Both the position numbers and the translations under genes were made by a program. A stretch of 64,000 bases of DNA from Escherichia coli (lineage in GTDB: Bacteria > Pseudomonadota > Gammaproteobacteria > Enterobacterales > Enterobacteriaceae): assembly GCF_044324875.1 (NCBI RefSeq), contig NZ_CP172185.1, one strand, 5' to 3'. Shown one piece after another: positions 14,566 through 19,889 of this stretch. Each line of letters begins with the position of its first letter. Within the stretch, counting starts at the first letter, position 1. The notes under the pieces were generated by a model. That model worked only from the letters and a program-made list of their open reading frames with translations, was not told where the DNA came from and did no database searches.

Positions 14566-15765
14566 ATGACGGAACAAGAAAAAACCTCCGCCGTGGTTGA
14601 AGAGACCAGGGAGGCCGTGGACACCACGTCACAACCTGTCGCAACAGAAAAAAAGAGTAAGAACAATACCGCATTGATTCTCAGCGCGGTGGCTATTGCT
14701 ATTGCTCTGGCGGCGGGCGTCGGTTTGTATGGCTGGGGTAAACAACAGGCCGTCAATCAGACTGCCACCAGCGATGCCCTGGCTAATCAACTGACGGCAC
14801 TGCAAAAAGCCCAGGAGAGCCAAAAAGCTGAGCTGGAAGGCATTATCAAGCAACAAGCTGTACAGCTTGAGCAGGCGAATCGTCAGCAAGAAACGCTGGC
14901 AAAACAGTTGGATGAAGTCCAACAAAAGGTCGCCACCATTTCCGGCAGCGATGCTAAAACCTGGCTGCTGGCTCAGGCCGATTTTCTGGTGAAACTCGCA
15001 GGACGGAAGCTGTGGAGCGATCAAGACGTCACGACCGCTGCAGCGTTGCTGAAAAGTGCAGATGCCAGCCTGGCGGATATGAATGACCCGAGTCTGATTA
15101 CCGTTCGTCGGGCAATTACCGATGATATCGCCAGCCTTTCTGCGGTATCGCAGGTGGATTATGACGGCATCATCCTGAAGCTCAATCAGCTTTCAAATCA
15201 GGTAGATAACCTGCGTCTGGCCGATAATGACAGCGATGGTTCGCCGATGGATTCCGACGGTGAAGAGCTTTCCAGTTCCATCAGCGAATGGCGTATCAAT
15301 CTGCAAAAAAGCTGGCAGAATTTTATGGACAACTTCATTACGATTTGCCGTCGTGATGACACCGCCGTACCGCTGTTAGCGCCAAATCAGGATATCTATC
15401 TGCGCGAAAATATTCGCTCTCGCCTGCTGGTCGCGGCACAAGCCGTACCGCGTCATCAGGAAGAGACTTATCGCCAGGCGCTGGAGAACGTCTCCACCTG
15501 GGTACGTGCTTACTACGATACTGATGATGCCACCACCAAAGCGTTCCTCGACGAGGTGGACCAGTTAAGCCAGCAAAATATCTCGATGGATCTCCCGGAA
15601 ACCCTGCAAAGCCAGGCGATGCTGGAAAAACTGATGCAGACTCGCGTGCGTAACCTGTTGGCACAACCGGCAGCGGGGACAACGGAAGCTAAACCTGCAC
15701 CTGCACCTGCACCTGCACCTGCACCGCAAGCTGATACTCCGGCAGCCGCGCCGCAAGGAGAATAA
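14566..15765 (+). CDS. hemX: HemX membrane protein
   Basis: 399-aa ORF with N-terminal TM segment, coiled-coil Q/A-rich region and Pro-Ala-rich C-terminus. Confidence 0.9.
15694..15723 (+). repeat. Hexanucleotide tandem repeat (cctgca x5) inside hemX
   Basis: Five perfect in-frame copies encoding [10 protein letters not shown]. Confidence 0.9.
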
Positions 15766-15767
15766 CC

Positions 15768-16964
15768 ATGCTAAAAGTGTTATTGCTCTTTGTTTTGCTG
15801 ATTGCGGGGATAGTGGTTGGCCCGATGATTGCCGGACACCAGGGTTACGTGCTGATCCAGACCGACAACTACAATATTGAAACCAGCGTCACTGGCCTGG
15901 CGATTATTTTGATTCTGGCAATGGTAGTGCTGTTTGCCATTGAGTGGCTACTGCGGCGGATCTTCCGCACAGGCACACACACCCGTGGGTGGTTTGTCGG
16001 ACGTAAGCGTCGCCGTGCCCGTAAGCAGACCGAACAGGCGCTGCTGAAACTGGCGGAAGGCGATTATCAGCAAGTTGAAAAGCTGATGGCGAAAAATGCC
16101 GATCACGCTGAACAACCGGTGGTGAACTATCTGCTGGCTGCCGAAGCCGCGCAACAACGCGGTGATGAAGCACGCGCCAACCAACATCTGGAACGCGCAG
16201 CGGAGCTGGCCGGCAACGACACAATTCCGGTAGAAATCACCCGTGTACGTCTGCAACTGGCCCGTAATGAAAACCATGCAGCACGTCACGGCGTTGATAA
16301 GCTGCTGGAAGTTACGCCACGCCATCCGGAAGTATTACGTCTGGCGGAACAGGCGTATATCCGCACTGGTGCATGGAGTTCGCTGCTGGATATCATCCCA
16401 TCAATGGCAAAAGCCCACGTTGGCGATGAAGAGCATCGTGCAATGCTGGAACAACAGGCATGGATTGGCCTGATGGATCAGGCGCGTGCCGATAACGGTA
16501 GCGAAGGTTTGCGTAACTGGTGGAAAAACCAAAGCCGGAAAACGCGTCATCAGGTGGCGTTACAGGTGGCAATGGCGGAACATCTTATTGAATGTGACGA
16601 TCATGATACTGCCCAGCAAATTATCATCGACGGCCTGAAACGCCAGTATGACGATCGCCTGCTGCTGCCGATCCCGCGTCTGAAAACCAATAACCCGGAA
16701 CAGCTGGAAAAAGTGCTGCGCCAACAGATCAAAAACGTGGGCGATCGCCCGTTGTTGTGGAGCACACTGGGTCAGTCGCTGATGAAGCACGGCGAATGGC
16801 AGGAAGCATCGCTCGCCTTCCGCGCGGCGCTGAAACAACGTCCGGACGCCTACGATTACGCATGGCTTGCCGACGCGCTGGACAGACTGCACAAGCCGGA
16901 AGAAGCCGCAGCGATGCGTCGCGATGGCTTGATGTTAACGTTGCAGAACAACCCGCCACAGTAA
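15768..16964 (+). CDS. hemY: HemY, TPR-containing heme biosynthesis-associated membrane protein
   Basis: 398-aa ORF with N-terminal TM helices; last gene of hemCDXY. Confidence 0.9.
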   Translation: MLKVLLLFVLLIAGIVVGPMIAGHQGYVLIQTDNYNIETSVTGLAIILILAMVVLFAIEWLLRRIFRTGTHTRGWFVGRKRRRARKQTEQALLKLAEGDYQQVEKLMAKNADHAEQPVVNYLLAAEAAQQRGDEARANQHLERAAELAGNDTIPVEITRVRLQLARNENHAARHGVDKLLEVTPRHPEVLRLAEQAYIRTGAWSSLLDIIPSMAKAHVGDEEHRAMLEQQAWIGLMDQARADNGSEGLRNWWKNQSRKTRHQVALQVAMAEHLIECDDHDTAQQIIIDGLKRQYDDRLLLPIPRLKTNNPEQLEKVLRQQIKNVGDRPLLWSTLGQSLMKHGEWQEASLAFRAALKQRPDAYDYAWLADALDRLHKPEEAAAMRRDGLMLTLQNNPPQ

Positions 16965-16970
16965 TCTATA

Positions 16971-17000
16971 TCGCCTCGTTCAGAGGCGATATTTTTTTAC
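16971..17000 (+). terminator. Intrinsic terminator after hemY
   Basis: Hairpin atcgcctcgttcagaggcgat followed by a T-run. Confidence 0.75.
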
Positions 17001-17004
17001 CAGG

Positions 17005-17604
17005 ATGTCAAAATTGCGCACGCCGTCCCGCTATCTTTTTCGCTTGCCATCGCATGAAATTACTCCTTTTCGGGCAACGCTCTTTTTAATCTTGTTGATA
17101 TGTGCCGCTCTGGCTGGCGTAAGTTGGCTGATTATTTCCTTTGTGCGTACGGGCAATACATTCATCTTCTGGTTAACACTTTTTATTGGGTATCTGATAG
17201 CTGCGGCGAAGCAGGAAAAAATCAAGCTCCTCAAGAAGTACCGAATCATGGCAGATAAACGTCGGGGACGCTCCATTTGCCAGTTCGCCCGCGAATTTGA
17301 CACCTACACCGTAGATACATGGGTGATTCGTGCGGTGTGGGATACCTTGCAAGGAAACGGTTATATCGATTACCCACTGCCACTGAAAGCCGATGATATA
17401 CTGGACGATGATCTGGATTTGGTGAGCGACGCAGTCGAGTTAGAAGAGCTGGTTGAAGATACCGCTGCTCGTTGCGGGCGCGATCTATGCGGAATAGAAG
17501 AGAATCCGTTTCTTCCCATCGTCACGGTAGGCTCTCTTGTAAGAGTGTTAAACGCGCAACCGATGACCCAGGAGCGACGTAACCAGTTCTTTATCCGGTC
17601 ATAA
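17005..17604 (+). CDS. Hypothetical protein (199 aa), predicted membrane-anchored with acidic C-terminal region
   Basis: Uninterrupted ORF with coding-like composition; hydrophobic N-terminal segments; acidic stretch DDILDDDLDLVSDAVELEELVED; weak RBS at 17005; stop abuts the glmZ terminator. Confidence 0.4.
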   Translation: MSKLRTPSRYLFRLPSHEITPFRATLFLILLICAALAGVSWLIISFVRTGNTFIFWLTLFIGYLIAAAKQEKIKLLKKYRIMADKRRGRSICQFAREFDTYTVDTWVIRAVWDTLQGNGYIDYPLPLKADDILDDDLDLVSDAVELEELVEDTAARCGRDLCGIEENPFLPIVTVGSLVRVLNAQPMTQERRNQFFIRS

Positions 17605-17809
17605 AAAAACGCCTGCTCTTATTACGGAGCAGGCGTTAAAACAGGTCTGTATGACAACAAGTGGGTGCTTCACTCAACGTTGTGTCCATGGTGTCTGATG
17701 AGGCATAAGCGACATCTGTCAGTGGACGATAAGCACCGTAAACGGCTCTGCGTCATTCCGGAGTTTATGAGGCACTAAGGCGAACATAAGAGATGGAATG
17801 AGCATCTAC
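17603..17809 (-). ncRNA. glmZ: GlmZ small regulatory RNA
   Basis: Minus-strand sequence matches remembered GlmZ from 5' GTAGATGCTCATTCCATCTC through the terminator GCCTGCTCCGTAATAAGAGCAGGCGTTTTTTT; lies between hemY and aslA. Confidence 0.8.
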
Positions 17810-18233
17810 TCGTTTATTATGCCACAGAGAACCGGGAAATAACATCCCTTAACACTTGTTATGAGATAATTCTGTAATCCTCTTTGCTTCCTGAGTAATA
17901 ACTTCCTGAGTGAATATTTCTCCTGCGCACGATTCTACACATATATATAATGAATAATAAAAGTCATTCAATTAATAACATATATATTAATTGCCGTTAA
18001 AACTAAAAACAGCATCAATAATCAACGCGATATAACATCACCGCCTTACATATCACCTGCGCCAGAGGTAGGATTGAAAACGCTCTCCTGATTTTCCAAT
18101 TCATTTTCTGGATAAATAAATAATTTATTTTTATCACTATTATTTATGCAATCATCCTGTCAGGGAGAGGGATCTCAATTATCAATGCTTAATTACGTCA
18201 TCATTTTGACGACATGAAACCGGAGCATTTTGC

Positions 18234-19889
18234 ATGGAATTTTCGTTTTCACCCAAACTTCTTGTTGTAGCTGTCGCCGCCGCTCTTCCTCTCATGGCCA
18301 GCGCAGCAGATACCCCGTCAACCGCCACCGCACGCAAAGGCTTTGCCGGATACGATCACCCAAACCAGTATCTGGTTAAACCGGCGACCACTATTGCCGA
18401 CAACATGATGCCGGTGATGCAGCATCCTGCACAAGACAAAGAAACCCAGCAGAAGCTGGCAGAACTTGAGAAAAAAACCGGTAAGAAACCGAACGTGGTT
18501 GTTTTCTTGCTGGATGATGTGGGCTGGATGGATGTTGGCTTTAACGGCGGTGGCGTGGCGGTGGGTAACCCTACACCAGATATCGACGCCGTTGCCAGCC
18601 AGGGGCTGATTTTAACTTCGGCGTATTCTCAACCGAGTTCTTCCCCAACCCGCGCCACGATTCTTACCGGACAATACTCCATCCACCACGGCATTCTGAT
18701 GCCGCCAATGTACGGGCAACCGGGCGGTCTGCAAGGGTTAACCACTCTGCCGCAGTTGCTGCACGATCAGGGCTACGTCACTCAGGCCATCGGGAAATGG
18801 CATATGGGGGAAAACAAAGAGTCGCAGCCGCAGAACGTTGGCTTTGATGATTTCCGCGGTTTTAACTCGGTATCCGATATGTATACCGAATGGCGTGATG
18901 TTCACGTCAACCCGGAAGTCGCCCTGAGCCCGGATCGTTCTGAATACATCCAAAAACTGCCGTTCAGCAAAGATGACGTTCATGCCGTGCGCGGCGGTGA
19001 ACAGGAAGCCATTGCCGACATTACGCCGAAATATATGGAAGACCTGGATCAACGCTGGATGGAATATGGCGTTAAGTTCCTCGACAAGATGGCGAAGAGC
19101 GATAAGCCTTTCTTCCTCTACTACGGCACTCGCGGCTGTCACTTCGATAACTACCCTAATGCGAAATATGCGGGTAGCTCTCCGGCGCGCACCTCTTACG
19201 GCGACTGCATGGTGGAGATGAACGATATCTTCGCCAATCTGTATAAAGCACTGGAGAAAAACGGTCAGCTTGATAACACGCTGATTGTGTTCACCTCTGA
19301 TAACGGTCCGGAAGCCGAAGTTCCGCCGCACGGTCGCACACCGTTCCGCGGTGCGAAAGGTTCTACATGGGAAGGCGGCGTTCGTGTGCCAACCTTCGTT
19401 TACTGGAAAGGCATGATCCAACCGCGTAAATCTGACGGCATTGTCGATCTGGCGGATCTCTTCCCTACGGCGCTGGATCTGGCGGGGCATCCTGGGGCGA
19501 AAGTAGCGAATTTAGTACCGAAAACCACCTTTATCGATGGTGTGGACCAGACATCTTTCTTCCTGGGAACAAATGGTCAGTCTAACCGTAAGGCCGAGCA
19601 CTACTTCCTCAACGGTAAACTTTCTGCTGTGCGTATGGATGAGTTCAAGTATCACGTCCTGATCCAGCAACCGTACGCGTATACCCAGAGCGGGTATCAG
19701 GGTGGATTCACCGGCACAGTAATGCAAACGGCGGGATCGTCGGTGTTTAACCTGTACACCGATCCGCAGGAAAGCGACTCTATCGGCGTGCGCCATATCC
19801 CAATGGGTGTACCGCTACAGACCGAAATGCATGCGTATATGGAGATCCTGAAAAAATATCCACCACGCGCGCAGATTAAATCTGATTAA
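18234..19889 (+). CDS. aslA: Arylsulfatase-family protein AslA
   Basis: 551-aa ORF with signal peptide and sulfatase motifs ([11 protein letters not shown] region). Confidence 0.9.

What the first reader, a model, noticed from the sequence alone, without database searches (positions are those of the whole stretch)
17005..17604. Unexpected 199-aa ORF filling the hemY to glmZ gap, its stop abutting the glmZ terminator
I recall glmZ lying in a short hemY-aslA intergenic region in K-12. Here a 600-bp ORF with coding-like composition, N-terminal hydrophobic segments and a strongly acidic C-terminal stretch occupies the space between the hemY terminator and the 3' end of convergent glmZ. Its TAA (17602-17604) sits on the first bases of the glmZ terminator T/A-tract. 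It is either an under-annotated conserved small gene or a strain-specific insertion placed exactly at a shared bidirectional terminator.
Basis: partly seen in the sequence, partly recalled or inferred. Interest (0 to 1): 0.5.

Follow-up and report, generated by a model that had tools for sequence, protein, structure and literature searches.

The report
Accessory membrane protein gene beside glmZ
The open reading frame between hemY and the small-RNA gene glmZ is a real but optional E. coli gene, present in about 13% of complete genomes and absent from K-12. It encodes a small membrane-anchored protein with an acyl-carrier-protein-like fold, from a widespread, mobile family whose function nobody has studied.

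Summary
The ORF is real and protein-coding. Its likely start is the TTG at 17014 (196 aa), not the ATG at 17005. RefSeq already annotates it as a hypothetical protein (WP_001260227.1 in E. coli 042).

K-12 has 47 nt between hemY and glmZ; this window has 638 nt. The gene is in 693 of 5426 complete E. coli genomes, as two alleles: 042-type, and a type found in strains labelled ST131. It sits at the same locus in E. fergusonii, another Escherichia species and Klebsiella aerogenes. In Kosakonia, Phytobacter and Superficieibacter it lies between rlmC and artJ. In several marine and freshwater bacteria it is an integron gene cassette flanked by attC sites.

dN/dS is 0.16-0.28. The family has 944 clusters at 50% identity, nearly all 165-200 aa.

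The protein has a conserved N-terminal MRxPSRxMP motif, a two-helix membrane hairpin, a basic linker and a cytoplasmic acidic domain with an ACP fold. The phosphopantetheine-serine position is not conserved and is Ala here. It is therefore not a carrier, and I infer it is a protein-binding module.

Function is unknown. The "bidirectional terminator" idea is not supported by consensus. This is an ordinary accessory gene from an uncharacterised family.

The parts
15768..16964 (+). hemY coding sequence (398 aa), the upstream neighbour and last gene of hemCDXY
   Evidence: ORF list. RefSeq annotation of the 99.6%-identical E. coli 042 region.
16968..16998 (+). Terminator-like hairpin after hemY (ATATCGCCTC-GTTCA-GAGGCGATAT) plus a T7 run, 3 nt upstream of the ORF's Shine-Dalgarno sequence. 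A related hairpin core (TATCGCC...GGCGATA) also lies in the hemY-ORF spacer of the K. aerogenes-like locus L005 and of L009.
   Evidence: Consensus scan. Spacer comparison and folds.
16966..17599 (.). Segment that differs from K-12. It holds the hairpin, Shine-Dalgarno sequence and ORF body. K-12 has an unrelated ~45-nt segment with its own hairpin (CCCGGAGG...CCTCCGGG). Homology resumes at CATAAAAAAACGCC.
   Evidence: Three-way alignment. K-12 sequence and glmZ position.
17002..17005 (+). Shine-Dalgarno-like AGGA, 8 nt upstream of TTG 17014. It overlaps the alternative ATG at 17005.
   Evidence: Sequence read directly. AAGGA plus 8 nt plus ATG in the ST131-type and E1V33 alleles.
17014..17604 (+). 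Coding sequence of the accessory protein: 196 aa, TTG start, TAA stop at 17602-17604.
   Evidence: dN/dS 0.16-0.28. Family of 944 clusters.
17014..17040 (+). Codons for the conserved N-terminal motif MRTPSRYLF (family consensus MRxPSRxMP). Predicted cytoplasmic.
   Evidence: Alignments. pLDDT 79-85 for residues 1-20 in the model built from the deep alignment.
17074..17208 (+). Two-helix membrane hairpin, residues 21-65, with a short RTGNT turn.
   Evidence: Hydropathy and charge. Model helices 18-46 and 49-82.
17209..17274 (+). Basic linker, residues 66-87, net charge +8. This places the C-terminal domain in the cytoplasm by the positive-inside rule.
17275..17601 (+). Cytoplasmic acidic domain with an ACP-like four-helix fold, residues 88-196, net charge -12. 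It includes the acidic helix-II region (residues 127-149, nt 17392-17460). The residue equivalent to the ACP serine is Ala140.
17603..17809 (-). glmZ small-RNA gene, convergent with the ORF. Its 3' end overlaps the ORF stop codon by 2 nt.
   Evidence: Rfam RF00083, 218.4 bits, E 3.7e-57.
17601..17637 (-). glmZ intrinsic terminator: 11-bp stem at 17637-17608, then a T-run that contains the complement of the ORF's TAA. The U-tract is present only on the glmZ strand.

Best explanation
The ORF is a functional accessory gene. Its real coordinates are 17014-17604 (196 aa).

It encodes a small inner-membrane protein with these parts: a conserved cytoplasmic N-terminal peptide (MRxPSRxMP), a two-helix membrane hairpin, a strongly basic linker, and a compact acidic cytoplasmic domain with the four-helix acyl-carrier-protein (ACP) fold.

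The domain keeps the Asp that precedes the ACP serine and keeps a very acidic helix II. It lacks the serine that carries phosphopantetheine. It therefore cannot be a carrier. Inferred: it works as a membrane-tethered protein-binding module that uses the ACP-style acidic docking surface, for example to hold or neutralise a basic partner protein at the membrane.

The gene is a self-contained, single-gene unit of a widespread mobile family. The same family occurs as integron cassettes and as single-gene inserts at two different enterobacterial intergenic sites. In Escherichia it has sat behind hemY, tail-to-tail with glmZ, since before E. coli diversified. It has been lost from most E. coli lineages, including K-12.

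Shown: gene reality, selection, distribution, architecture, fold, absence of the serine, and mobility. Inferred: cytoplasmic orientation, partner binding, and the direction of the gain/loss event.
For: - Reality and selection: full-length homologues exist down to 28% identity. dN/dS is 0.16-0.28. 944 clusters at 50% identity match at E<=1e-3 and 724 at E<=1e-10, almost all 165-200 aa. The frame is intact in 587 of 589 carriers at the C6 tract.
- Distribution: 693 of 5426 complete E. coli genomes carry it, 104 with the 042-type allele and 589 with the 87.6%-identical allele seen in strains labelled ST131, SE15 and JJ1887.
- Same hemY-ORF-glmZ order: Escherichia sp. E1V33, the K. aerogenes-like locus L005, and L006 and L009. 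The ORF also follows hemCDXY in K. aerogenes CP077429 and E. fergusonii CP058057, where glmZ was not scanned.
- Second site: between rlmC and artJ in Kosakonia, Phytobacter and Superficieibacter.
- Integron cassettes: attC repeats flank the gene in L041, next to an IntI-like recombinase, and in L004, L026, L046 and others.
- Architecture: hydropathy and charge. AlphaFold2 model with pLDDT 93.5 and pTM 0.85.
- Serine: the equivalent column holds P35, D30, E21, S14, G12 and A11 of 148 sequences, and Ala in the window.
- Conserved charged and polar residues: R83, R106, D128, R153, R156, N164, Q182.
Against: - There is no direct evidence of expression. No promoter-like site was found upstream on the + strand. 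A strong terminator-like hairpin sits 3 nt before the Shine-Dalgarno sequence. The 042-type allele starts with TTG. Expression may therefore depend on read-through from hemCDXY and be low.
- The same scan missed the experimentally defined sigma-70 glmZ promoter (PMC3045617), so its silence is weak evidence.
- No partner, phenotype or conserved neighbour gene was found, so the binding-module mechanism is inference from the fold only.
- dN/dS is 5-20 times higher than for hemY, so constraint is relaxed.
- Truncated or frameshifted copies exist in some lineages.
Confidence: 0.6

Rival explanations
1. It is an orphan immunity or defence-type protein. On this reading the membrane-tethered acidic domain neutralises a basic toxin or a phage protein. 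This would explain why the gene travels alone, is patchy within species and sits in integron arrays. It is a specific version of the binding-module idea rather than a contradiction of it.
For: - Single-gene mobility and integron cassette status.
- Neighbours in other genomes are conflict-type genes: VapBC-like RHH+PIN in Sulfurovum, Fic in Duganella, and a weak SUKH match plus Bro-N in Pseudomonas otitidis.
- Patchy presence within E. coli.
- From memory, colicin DNase immunity proteins are classed in the same SCOP fold as ACP.
Against: - No PADLOC or PHROGs match.
- No toxin gene is consistently adjacent.
- Substitutions between alleles are spread evenly, not concentrated on one surface.
- No phage record carries a relative.
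Confidence: 0.2
2. The locus matters mainly in cis. Transcription of the ORF runs into the glmZ terminator and antisense to glmZ, so carrying the gene tunes GlmZ and GlmS levels. On this reading the protein is secondary.
For: - The ORF stop lies 0-10 nt from the glmZ terminator in all four hemY-locus lineages.
- On the ORF strand the hairpin has no U-tract, so read-through into glmZ antisense is plausible.
Against: - The protein is under purifying selection and is conserved far from any glmZ, at rlmC-artJ, in integrons, and in Pseudomonas and Sulfurovum.
- K-12 has the same convergent geometry with hemY itself, so the ORF adds little.
- glmZ is 100% identical across the aligned terminator region in carriers and K-12.
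Confidence: 0.08
3. It is a decaying remnant: an ORF that happens still to be open in some lineages but no longer does anything in E. coli.
For: - Lost from 87% of complete E. coli genomes.
- TTG start and no recognisable promoter.
- Frameshifted (C6 to C5) and N-terminally truncated copies exist.
- dN/dS is well above that of hemY.
Against: - dN/dS of 0.21-0.28 between Escherichia alleles is well below 1.
- 587 of 589 copies are intact at the slippery tract.
- All 693 copies cover the full length.
- Invariant residues are retained in the window protein.
Confidence: 0.08
4. It is a genuine acyl or peptidyl carrier protein anchored in the membrane, carrying phosphopantetheine.
For: ACP fold. 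The aspartate of the DSL motif is conserved (126 of 148). 14 of 148 members have Ser at the equivalent column.
Against: - The serine column is P/D/E/S/G/A and is Ala in this protein. The nearby Ser138 falls in an insertion found only in the enteric branch.
- No Pfam PP-binding match.
- No fatty-acid, polyketide, non-ribosomal-peptide or phosphopantetheinyl-transferase genes are conserved nearby.
Confidence: 0.03

Closest known systems
Acyl carrier proteins (PP-binding, Pfam PF00550; e.g. E. coli AcpP, M. tuberculosis Rv0033, mitochondrial NDUFAB1)
   Different: The phosphopantetheine serine is not conserved and is Ala here. The protein has a membrane hairpin, a basic linker, a conserved N-terminal peptide and extra conserved arginines. 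No Pfam PP-binding match. No biosynthetic gene neighbours.
DUF1493 (Pfam PF07377), an uncharacterised enterobacterial family of about 115 aa
   Same: It is the only soluble-domain Pfam family that recurs among members: 3 of 37 (best E 4.4e-4) and 7 of 120. Its size is similar to that of the cytoplasmic domain. Its function is also unknown; only passing mentions turned up in the literature.
   Different: The window protein does not match at all, and the best hits have only marginal E-values. DUF1493 proteins, as described by Pfam, are short proteins of about 115 residues. Homology is possible but not demonstrated.
Integron gene cassettes of unknown function (sedentary chromosomal integrons of marine gammaproteobacteria)
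   Same: Relatives at 30-35% identity are one-ORF cassettes. Each is followed by an attC-like element that starts at TAAC, overlapping the stop codon, and ends in GTTA. They sit in arrays of ten or more cassettes, or next to an IntI-like recombinase.
   Different: The window copy has no attC-like repeat on either side and no recombinase nearby. In enterobacteria the gene is fixed at ordinary intergenic sites.
Small two-transmembrane inner-membrane proteins such as CptA/YgfX (Pfam PF07254)
   Same: N-terminal membrane hairpin followed by a small cytoplasmic domain. 4 of 120 members give sub-threshold matches, best E 2.7e-5.
   Different: The matches are few, the window protein is not among them, and they probably reflect the hydrophobic hairpin only. 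No antitoxin-like partner gene is present.

Membership tests
Acyl carrier protein / PP-binding (PF00550) | Four-helix ACP fold | tested here: met
Acyl carrier protein / PP-binding (PF00550) | Conserved serine of the DSL motif at the start of helix II (phosphopantetheine attachment) | tested here: not met
   The equivalent column (residue 140) holds P35, D30, E21, S14, G12 and A11 of 148 sequences, and Ala in the window. The register comes from the hmmsearch alignment to ACP chains and from helix II starting at residue 140 in the model.
Acyl carrier protein / PP-binding (PF00550) | Match to the family HMM above the curated cut-off | tested here: not met
   No PP-binding hit for the window protein or for 37 or 120 relatives. 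hhalign against AcpP gave probability 1.4%.
Acyl carrier protein / PP-binding (PF00550) | Genomic association with fatty-acid, polyketide or non-ribosomal-peptide enzymes, or a phosphopantetheinyl transferase | tested here: not met
   No neighbour family recurs across 56 loci. The enteric neighbours are hemY/glmZ or rlmC/artJ.
DUF1493 (PF07377) | Match to the family HMM above the gathering score | tested here: not met
   The window protein gives no hit. 3 of 37 and 7 of 120 relatives give weak hits, best E 4.4e-4.
Integron gene cassette | attC recombination site immediately 3' of the ORF (TAAC...GTTA ends, imperfect hairpin) | tested here: not met
   In the window, the region after the stop is the glmZ terminator, there is no flanking repeat (score 14 against a null maximum of 19), and no TAAC...GTTA element. 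For relatives the feature is met in L004, L026, L033, L041, L046, L049, L054, L057 and L064.
Integron gene cassette | Integron integrase (IntI) adjacent to the array | tested here: not met
   None lies next to the window ORF. In the relative L041, a recombinase with Phage_int_SAM_4 plus Phage_integrase domains lies divergently upstream.
Bidirectional intrinsic terminator (shared by ORF and glmZ) | GC-rich hairpin followed by a U-tract on both strands | tested here: not met
   The - strand has an 11-bp stem plus T7. On the + strand the same stem is followed by TTAAAAC, and the scan reports no + strand terminator there.
GlmZ sRNA (Rfam RF00083), the neighbour used to define the finding | Covariance-model match above gathering score, in the hemY-aslA interval | tested here: met
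   218.4 bits against a gathering score of 60, at 17603-17809 on the - strand. K-12 location and PMC2377431.
Known anti-phage defence proteins (PADLOC-DB 2.0) | HMM match to any catalogued defence protein | tested here: not met
   No match for the window protein. Only scattered single hits with E>=0.0025 among 37 relatives.
CptA/YgfX membrane toxin (PF07254) | HMM match above cut-off and a paired antitoxin gene | tested here: not met
   4 of 120 relatives match below cut-off, and the window protein does not. No conserved partner gene.

The most novel reading that the evidence does not exclude
The family is a previously undescribed class of membrane-tethered ACP mimic. In this reading the serine-less ACP domain, clamped by its own conserved N-terminal peptide, acts as a decoy for a protein that normally docks on ACP or on another acidic helix. 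The target could be a toxin, a phage factor or a lipid-synthesis enzyme. That would give a one-gene protective or regulatory function that integrons and homologous recombination spread between bacteria, and that distinguishes E. coli lineages such as ST131 and 042 from K-12.
Probability: 0.15. Interest if true: 0.65.

Novelty: new variant of a known kind. Interest (0 to 1): 0.38.

Why it matters
For annotation, the result is mundane. The gap between hemY and glmZ in this strain holds an already-called hypothetical gene, and K-12 is simply the short haplotype.

Three things make it mildly useful:
- It gives a named architecture to a family that has no Pfam or NCBIfam model: N-terminal motif, membrane hairpin and serine-less ACP fold. 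The family has about 950 clusters at 50% identity across Proteobacteria, Verrucomicrobia, Armatimonadetes and others.
- It shows the family is mobile as integron cassettes. This marks it as a self-sufficient single-gene function worth testing.
- The gene is one of the differences between K-12 and clinically important lineages (strains labelled ST131, enteroaggregative strain 042). It lies tail-to-tail with the regulator of cell-envelope precursor synthesis, so anyone engineering or interpreting the glmZ locus in those strains should know it is there.

Tried and rejected
- Pfam, NCBIfam, PADLOC and PHROGs scans of the protein and of 37-120 relatives gave nothing above cut-off.
- hhalign of the family against E. 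coli AcpP gave probability 1.4%. It shows the register only and is not evidence of homology.
- Profile search of PDB sequences: none with 37 sequences, and only sub-significant ACP hits with 120.
- AFDB Foldseek was unavailable.
- All-against-all BLAST of neighbours in 56 loci found no recurring partner outside close relatives.
- Longer family members were checked for domain fusions. They are mis-called starts plus one tandem duplicate.
- Two home-made attC detectors were too strict and missed known sites. They were replaced by flank-repeat comparison, direct reading and folding.
- Literature searches for DUF1493, for hemY/glmZ/ST131, and for integron cassettes with an ACP-like fold found nothing on this gene.
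- tblastn against phages gave no hit. Against plasmids it gave one hit, on an 801-kb Pseudoalteromonas replicon.
- I considered whether the 591-bp size difference from K-12, which equals the CDS length, means a precise excision. I rejected this because the two spacers are unrelated in sequence.
- I considered a paralogue elsewhere in E. coli to explain the 108-aa and 158-aa database entries. They are frameshifted copies at the same locus.

Full report
**1. What is in the sequence**

The window between hemY (15768-16964, +) and aslA (18234-19889, +) holds an uninterrupted + strand ORF at 17005-17604. It also holds glmZ on the - strand at 17603-17809 (Rfam RF00083, 218 bits). The ORF's TAA (17602-17604) overlaps the last two bases of glmZ. 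It lies inside the A-run that is the complement of the glmZ terminator U-tract. A terminator-like hairpin with a T7 tail follows hemY at 16968-16998.

One correction concerns the start. The homologous start, which is also the one NCBI's PGAP annotation pipeline uses, is TTG 17014, giving 196 aa. Every relative begins MRxPSR at that codon, and it is ATG in the other Escherichia alleles. The AGGA at 17002-17005 is 8 nt upstream of it but overlaps the ATG at 17005.

**2. Comparison with K-12 and other E. coli**

The window is 99.6% identical to E. coli 042, where the ORF is annotated as hypothetical protein WP_001260227.1. In K-12 MG1655 the distance from the hemY stop to the glmZ 3' end is 47 nt. 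That spacer has an unrelated hairpin and no ORF. In the window the distance is 638 nt. [quoted passage not shown]

Of 5426 complete E. coli genomes, 693 (12.8%) carry the ORF. Each has one copy, and all copies are full length.
- 104 have the 042-type allele (>=95% identity).
- 589 have an allele 87.6% identical in DNA. The listed carriers include SE15, JJ1887 and strains labelled O25b:H4-ST131.

The remaining genomes show the K-12-type short interval. No intermediate forms appeared among the listed rows.

**3. It is a real gene under selection**

Database searches found full-length relatives of 190-199 aa at 97, 84, 81, 57, 43 and about 40% identity, and more distant ones of 171-176 aa. Nei-Gojobori dN/dS is 0.21-0.28 between Escherichia alleles and 0.16-0.28 in the deeper comparisons that are not saturated. 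For hemY in the same genome pairs it is 0.01-0.06. The gene is therefore constrained, though much less tightly than its neighbour.

The ST131-type allele has a C6 tract, and a C5 frameshift variant exists in public assemblies. In complete genomes, however, 587 of 589 copies are intact there.

A profile search of 1.84 billion representative proteins found 944 clusters at E<=1e-3, 724 at E<=1e-10 and 210 at E<=1e-30. Almost all are 165-200 aa with the same single-module layout, and one is a tandem duplicate.

**4. Where the family lives**

*Behind hemY.* The order hemY-ORF-glmZ recurs in several genomes:
- Escherichia sp. E1V33 (L013).
- A K. aerogenes-like contig (L005).
- Two unnamed enterobacterial contigs (L006, L009). 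HemY in L005, L006 and L009 is 90-92% identical to the window's, while the ORF is only 42-57% identical.
- Named genomes of K. aerogenes (CP077429) and E. fergusonii (CP058057) also show the ORF directly after hemCDXY. glmZ was not scanned in these two.

Source names attach the 81%-identity cluster to E. fergusonii, E. marmotae and cryptic Escherichia clades, and the 40%-identity cluster to K. aerogenes.

*A second enterobacterial site.* In Kosakonia, Phytobacter, Superficieibacter and the metagenome-assembled genome UBA5654, the gene sits at potHI-ybjO-rlmC-ORF-artJ.

*Outside the family Enterobacteriaceae.* Relatives occur in Pseudomonas, Motilimonas, Alcanivorax, Oceanobacter, Rheinheimera, Microbulbifer, Pelomonas, Curvibacter, Duganella, Sulfurovum, Verrucomicrobia, Armatimonadetes and others. 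They share no conserved neighbour.

*Integron cassettes.* In a subset the gene is plainly an integron cassette.
- In L004 ten successive small ORFs are each followed by a 64-85-nt repeat. The repeat starts at TAAC, overlapping the stop codon, and ends in GCGTTA.
- In L041 (Oceanobacter) 99-nt repeats of this kind flank the gene, and a recombinase with Phage_int_SAM_4 plus Phage_integrase domains lies divergently upstream.
- Similar elements follow the stop codon in L026, L033, L046, L049, L054, L057 and L064.
- The bottom strands of the L004 and L057 elements fold as bulged hairpins (z -2.7 and -6.7).

*Other contexts.* Elsewhere the neighbours are a VapBC-like pair, a Fic protein, a weak SUKH match with a Bro-N protein, or an IS3 transposase. 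The window copy has no attC-like flank.

*Reading.* I read this as a self-contained mobile gene that became resident at two ordinary intergenic sites in enterobacteria. Several Escherichia species carry it behind hemY, so the short K-12 haplotype is more probably a loss than the long one a gain. This direction is an inference. The synonymous divergence between the two E. coli alleles (dS 0.32) is about twice that of the adjacent hemY (0.14). This fits old alleles or import from other Escherichia.

**5. The protein**

*Hydropathy and charge.* The layout is a short basic N-terminus (net +3), two hydrophobic helices (residues 21-43 and 50-65) joined by RTGNT, a linker of net charge +8, and a C-terminal domain of net charge -12. 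The stretch at residues 127-149 alone carries -12. By the positive-inside rule both termini are cytoplasmic. This orientation is inferred.

*Structure prediction.* AlphaFold2 with 13 sequences gave pLDDT 81.7. With 120 sequences it gave pLDDT 93.5 and pTM 0.85. The N-terminal 20 residues reached pLDDT 79-85 in a non-helical conformation, which suggests the conserved MRxPSRxMP peptide packs against the rest of the protein.

*The serine position.* In that register, and by the start of helix II at residue 140 in the model, the aspartate before the modification site is conserved (126 of 148). The serine position holds P35, D30, E21, S14, G12 and A11, and is Ala in this protein. The family is therefore ACP-like in fold but is not a phosphopantetheine carrier.

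*Conserved residues and Pfam.* F91, R106 and D128 are invariant. R83, D101, R153, R156, N164 and Q182 are nearly so. The only recurrent soluble-domain Pfam signal is sub-threshold DUF1493, in 3 of 37 and 7 of 120 members. DUF1493 itself has no known function.

**6. How it probably works**

*Shown.* It is a selected, mobile, single-gene membrane protein with a cytoplasm-facing domain that has the ACP fold but no conserved serine.

*Inferred.* It acts by binding another protein through the acidic helix-II face, the surface ACPs use to dock on their clients, and holds that partner at the membrane.

Whether that partner is a toxin, a phage protein or a housekeeping ACP client cannot be decided here. 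The conflict-type neighbourhoods and the integron cassette status lean towards a protective role. However, no catalogued defence or immunity family matches, and no toxin is consistently adjacent.

*Expression in E. coli is not demonstrated.* The strong hairpin plus T7 run lies 3 nt before the Shine-Dalgarno sequence. No promoter-like site was found upstream. The 042-type start codon is TTG. The same scan also missed the experimentally defined glmZ promoter (PMC3045617), so its negative result is weak.

**7. The terminator idea**

The ORF ends 0-10 nt from the glmZ terminator in all four hemY-locus lineages, so it has no terminator of its own. The glmZ hairpin has a U-tract only on the glmZ strand. 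"Shared bidirectional terminator" is therefore not supported by consensus. Read-through antisense to glmZ is possible and untested. The protein is conserved far from any glmZ, so a purely cis-acting role is unlikely.

**8. Verdict**

It is a conserved small gene. It is not unannotated and not strain-specific, and the terminator is not demonstrably bidirectional.
- As a genome feature it is ordinary: an accessory hypothetical gene already in RefSeq.
- The family behind it is uncharacterised. Its architecture (membrane hairpin plus serine-less ACP fold plus N-terminal motif) and its integron mobility are, as far as these searches show, undescribed. That justifies a modest interest score and the label "new variant of a known kind".

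Noticed in passing
L069:4738-5330 (E. coli assembly GCA_916159785.1); equivalent to window ~17295-17300: The ST131-type allele has a C6 homopolymer (TTTTCCCCCCACACC). A C5 variant splits the gene into 99-aa and 108-aa products. The 108-aa product is recorded on more than 400 contigs, yet only 2 of 589 complete genomes deviate at this tract. It could be a small clonal frameshift lineage or a sequencing artefact.
   Followed up: partly
P0033, P0086 (E. albertii, some E. fergusonii); equivalent to window 17248-17604: In E. albertii and some E. fergusonii genomes only a 118-aa product is called. It starts at the internal Met79 (MADKRQG...) and so lacks the membrane hairpin. This suggests N-terminal disruption or an alternative soluble form in those lineages.
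   Followed up: no
L022:927-1355 (Motilimonas eburnea): The gene immediately upstream of the family member encodes a 142-aa protein with a hydrophobic N-terminal segment that may be a signal peptide. It gives a Pfam PP-binding match (E 5e-5, 23.8 bits against a cut-off of 20.8) whose motif reads DTD instead of DSL. This is a second serine-less ACP-like protein next to the first.
   Followed up: no
window 15700-15765 (3' end of hemX): HemX ends in a Pro-Ala repeat ([24 protein letters not shown]). The annotated hemX length differs between 042 (1218 nt), SK1144 (1206 nt) and K-12 (1182 nt), so the gene has a length-variable low-complexity tail.
   Followed up: no
NZ_CP170379.1 (E. coli 1428_w1_hybrid, 294 kb record), positions ~244080-244139: The single 'plasmid' hit for the hemY-ORF region is a 294-kb record labelled as a plasmid. 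It carries this chromosomal locus, so it is probably a misassigned chromosome fragment.
   Followed up: no
NZ_CP044293.1 (E. coli P276M): One of the 5425 genomes that matched the 16700-18300 query did so only over aslA, at 80.6% identity. It had no hit to the hemY 3' end or to glmZ in megablast. The locus there is unusually divergent or rearranged.
   Followed up: no
window 16965-17013 versus L005:6943-7000 and L009:1627-1682: The hairpin between hemY and the ORF keeps the same stem core (TATCGCC...GGCGATA) in Escherichia, the K. aerogenes-like contig and L009, even though the ORF is only about 42% identical. K-12 and L006 have different hairpins there. Only the Escherichia version has the long T-run.
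   Followed up: partly
P0132 (354 aa, metagenomic): One family member is a head-to-tail duplication of the whole module: membrane hairpin plus ACP-like domain, twice in one polypeptide.
   Followed up: partly
window 16965-17602 versus L003:1766-1812: The length difference between the long and short haplotypes is 591 bp, exactly the length of the CDS including its stop codon. The two spacers share no evident sequence, so this looks coincidental.
   Followed up: yes
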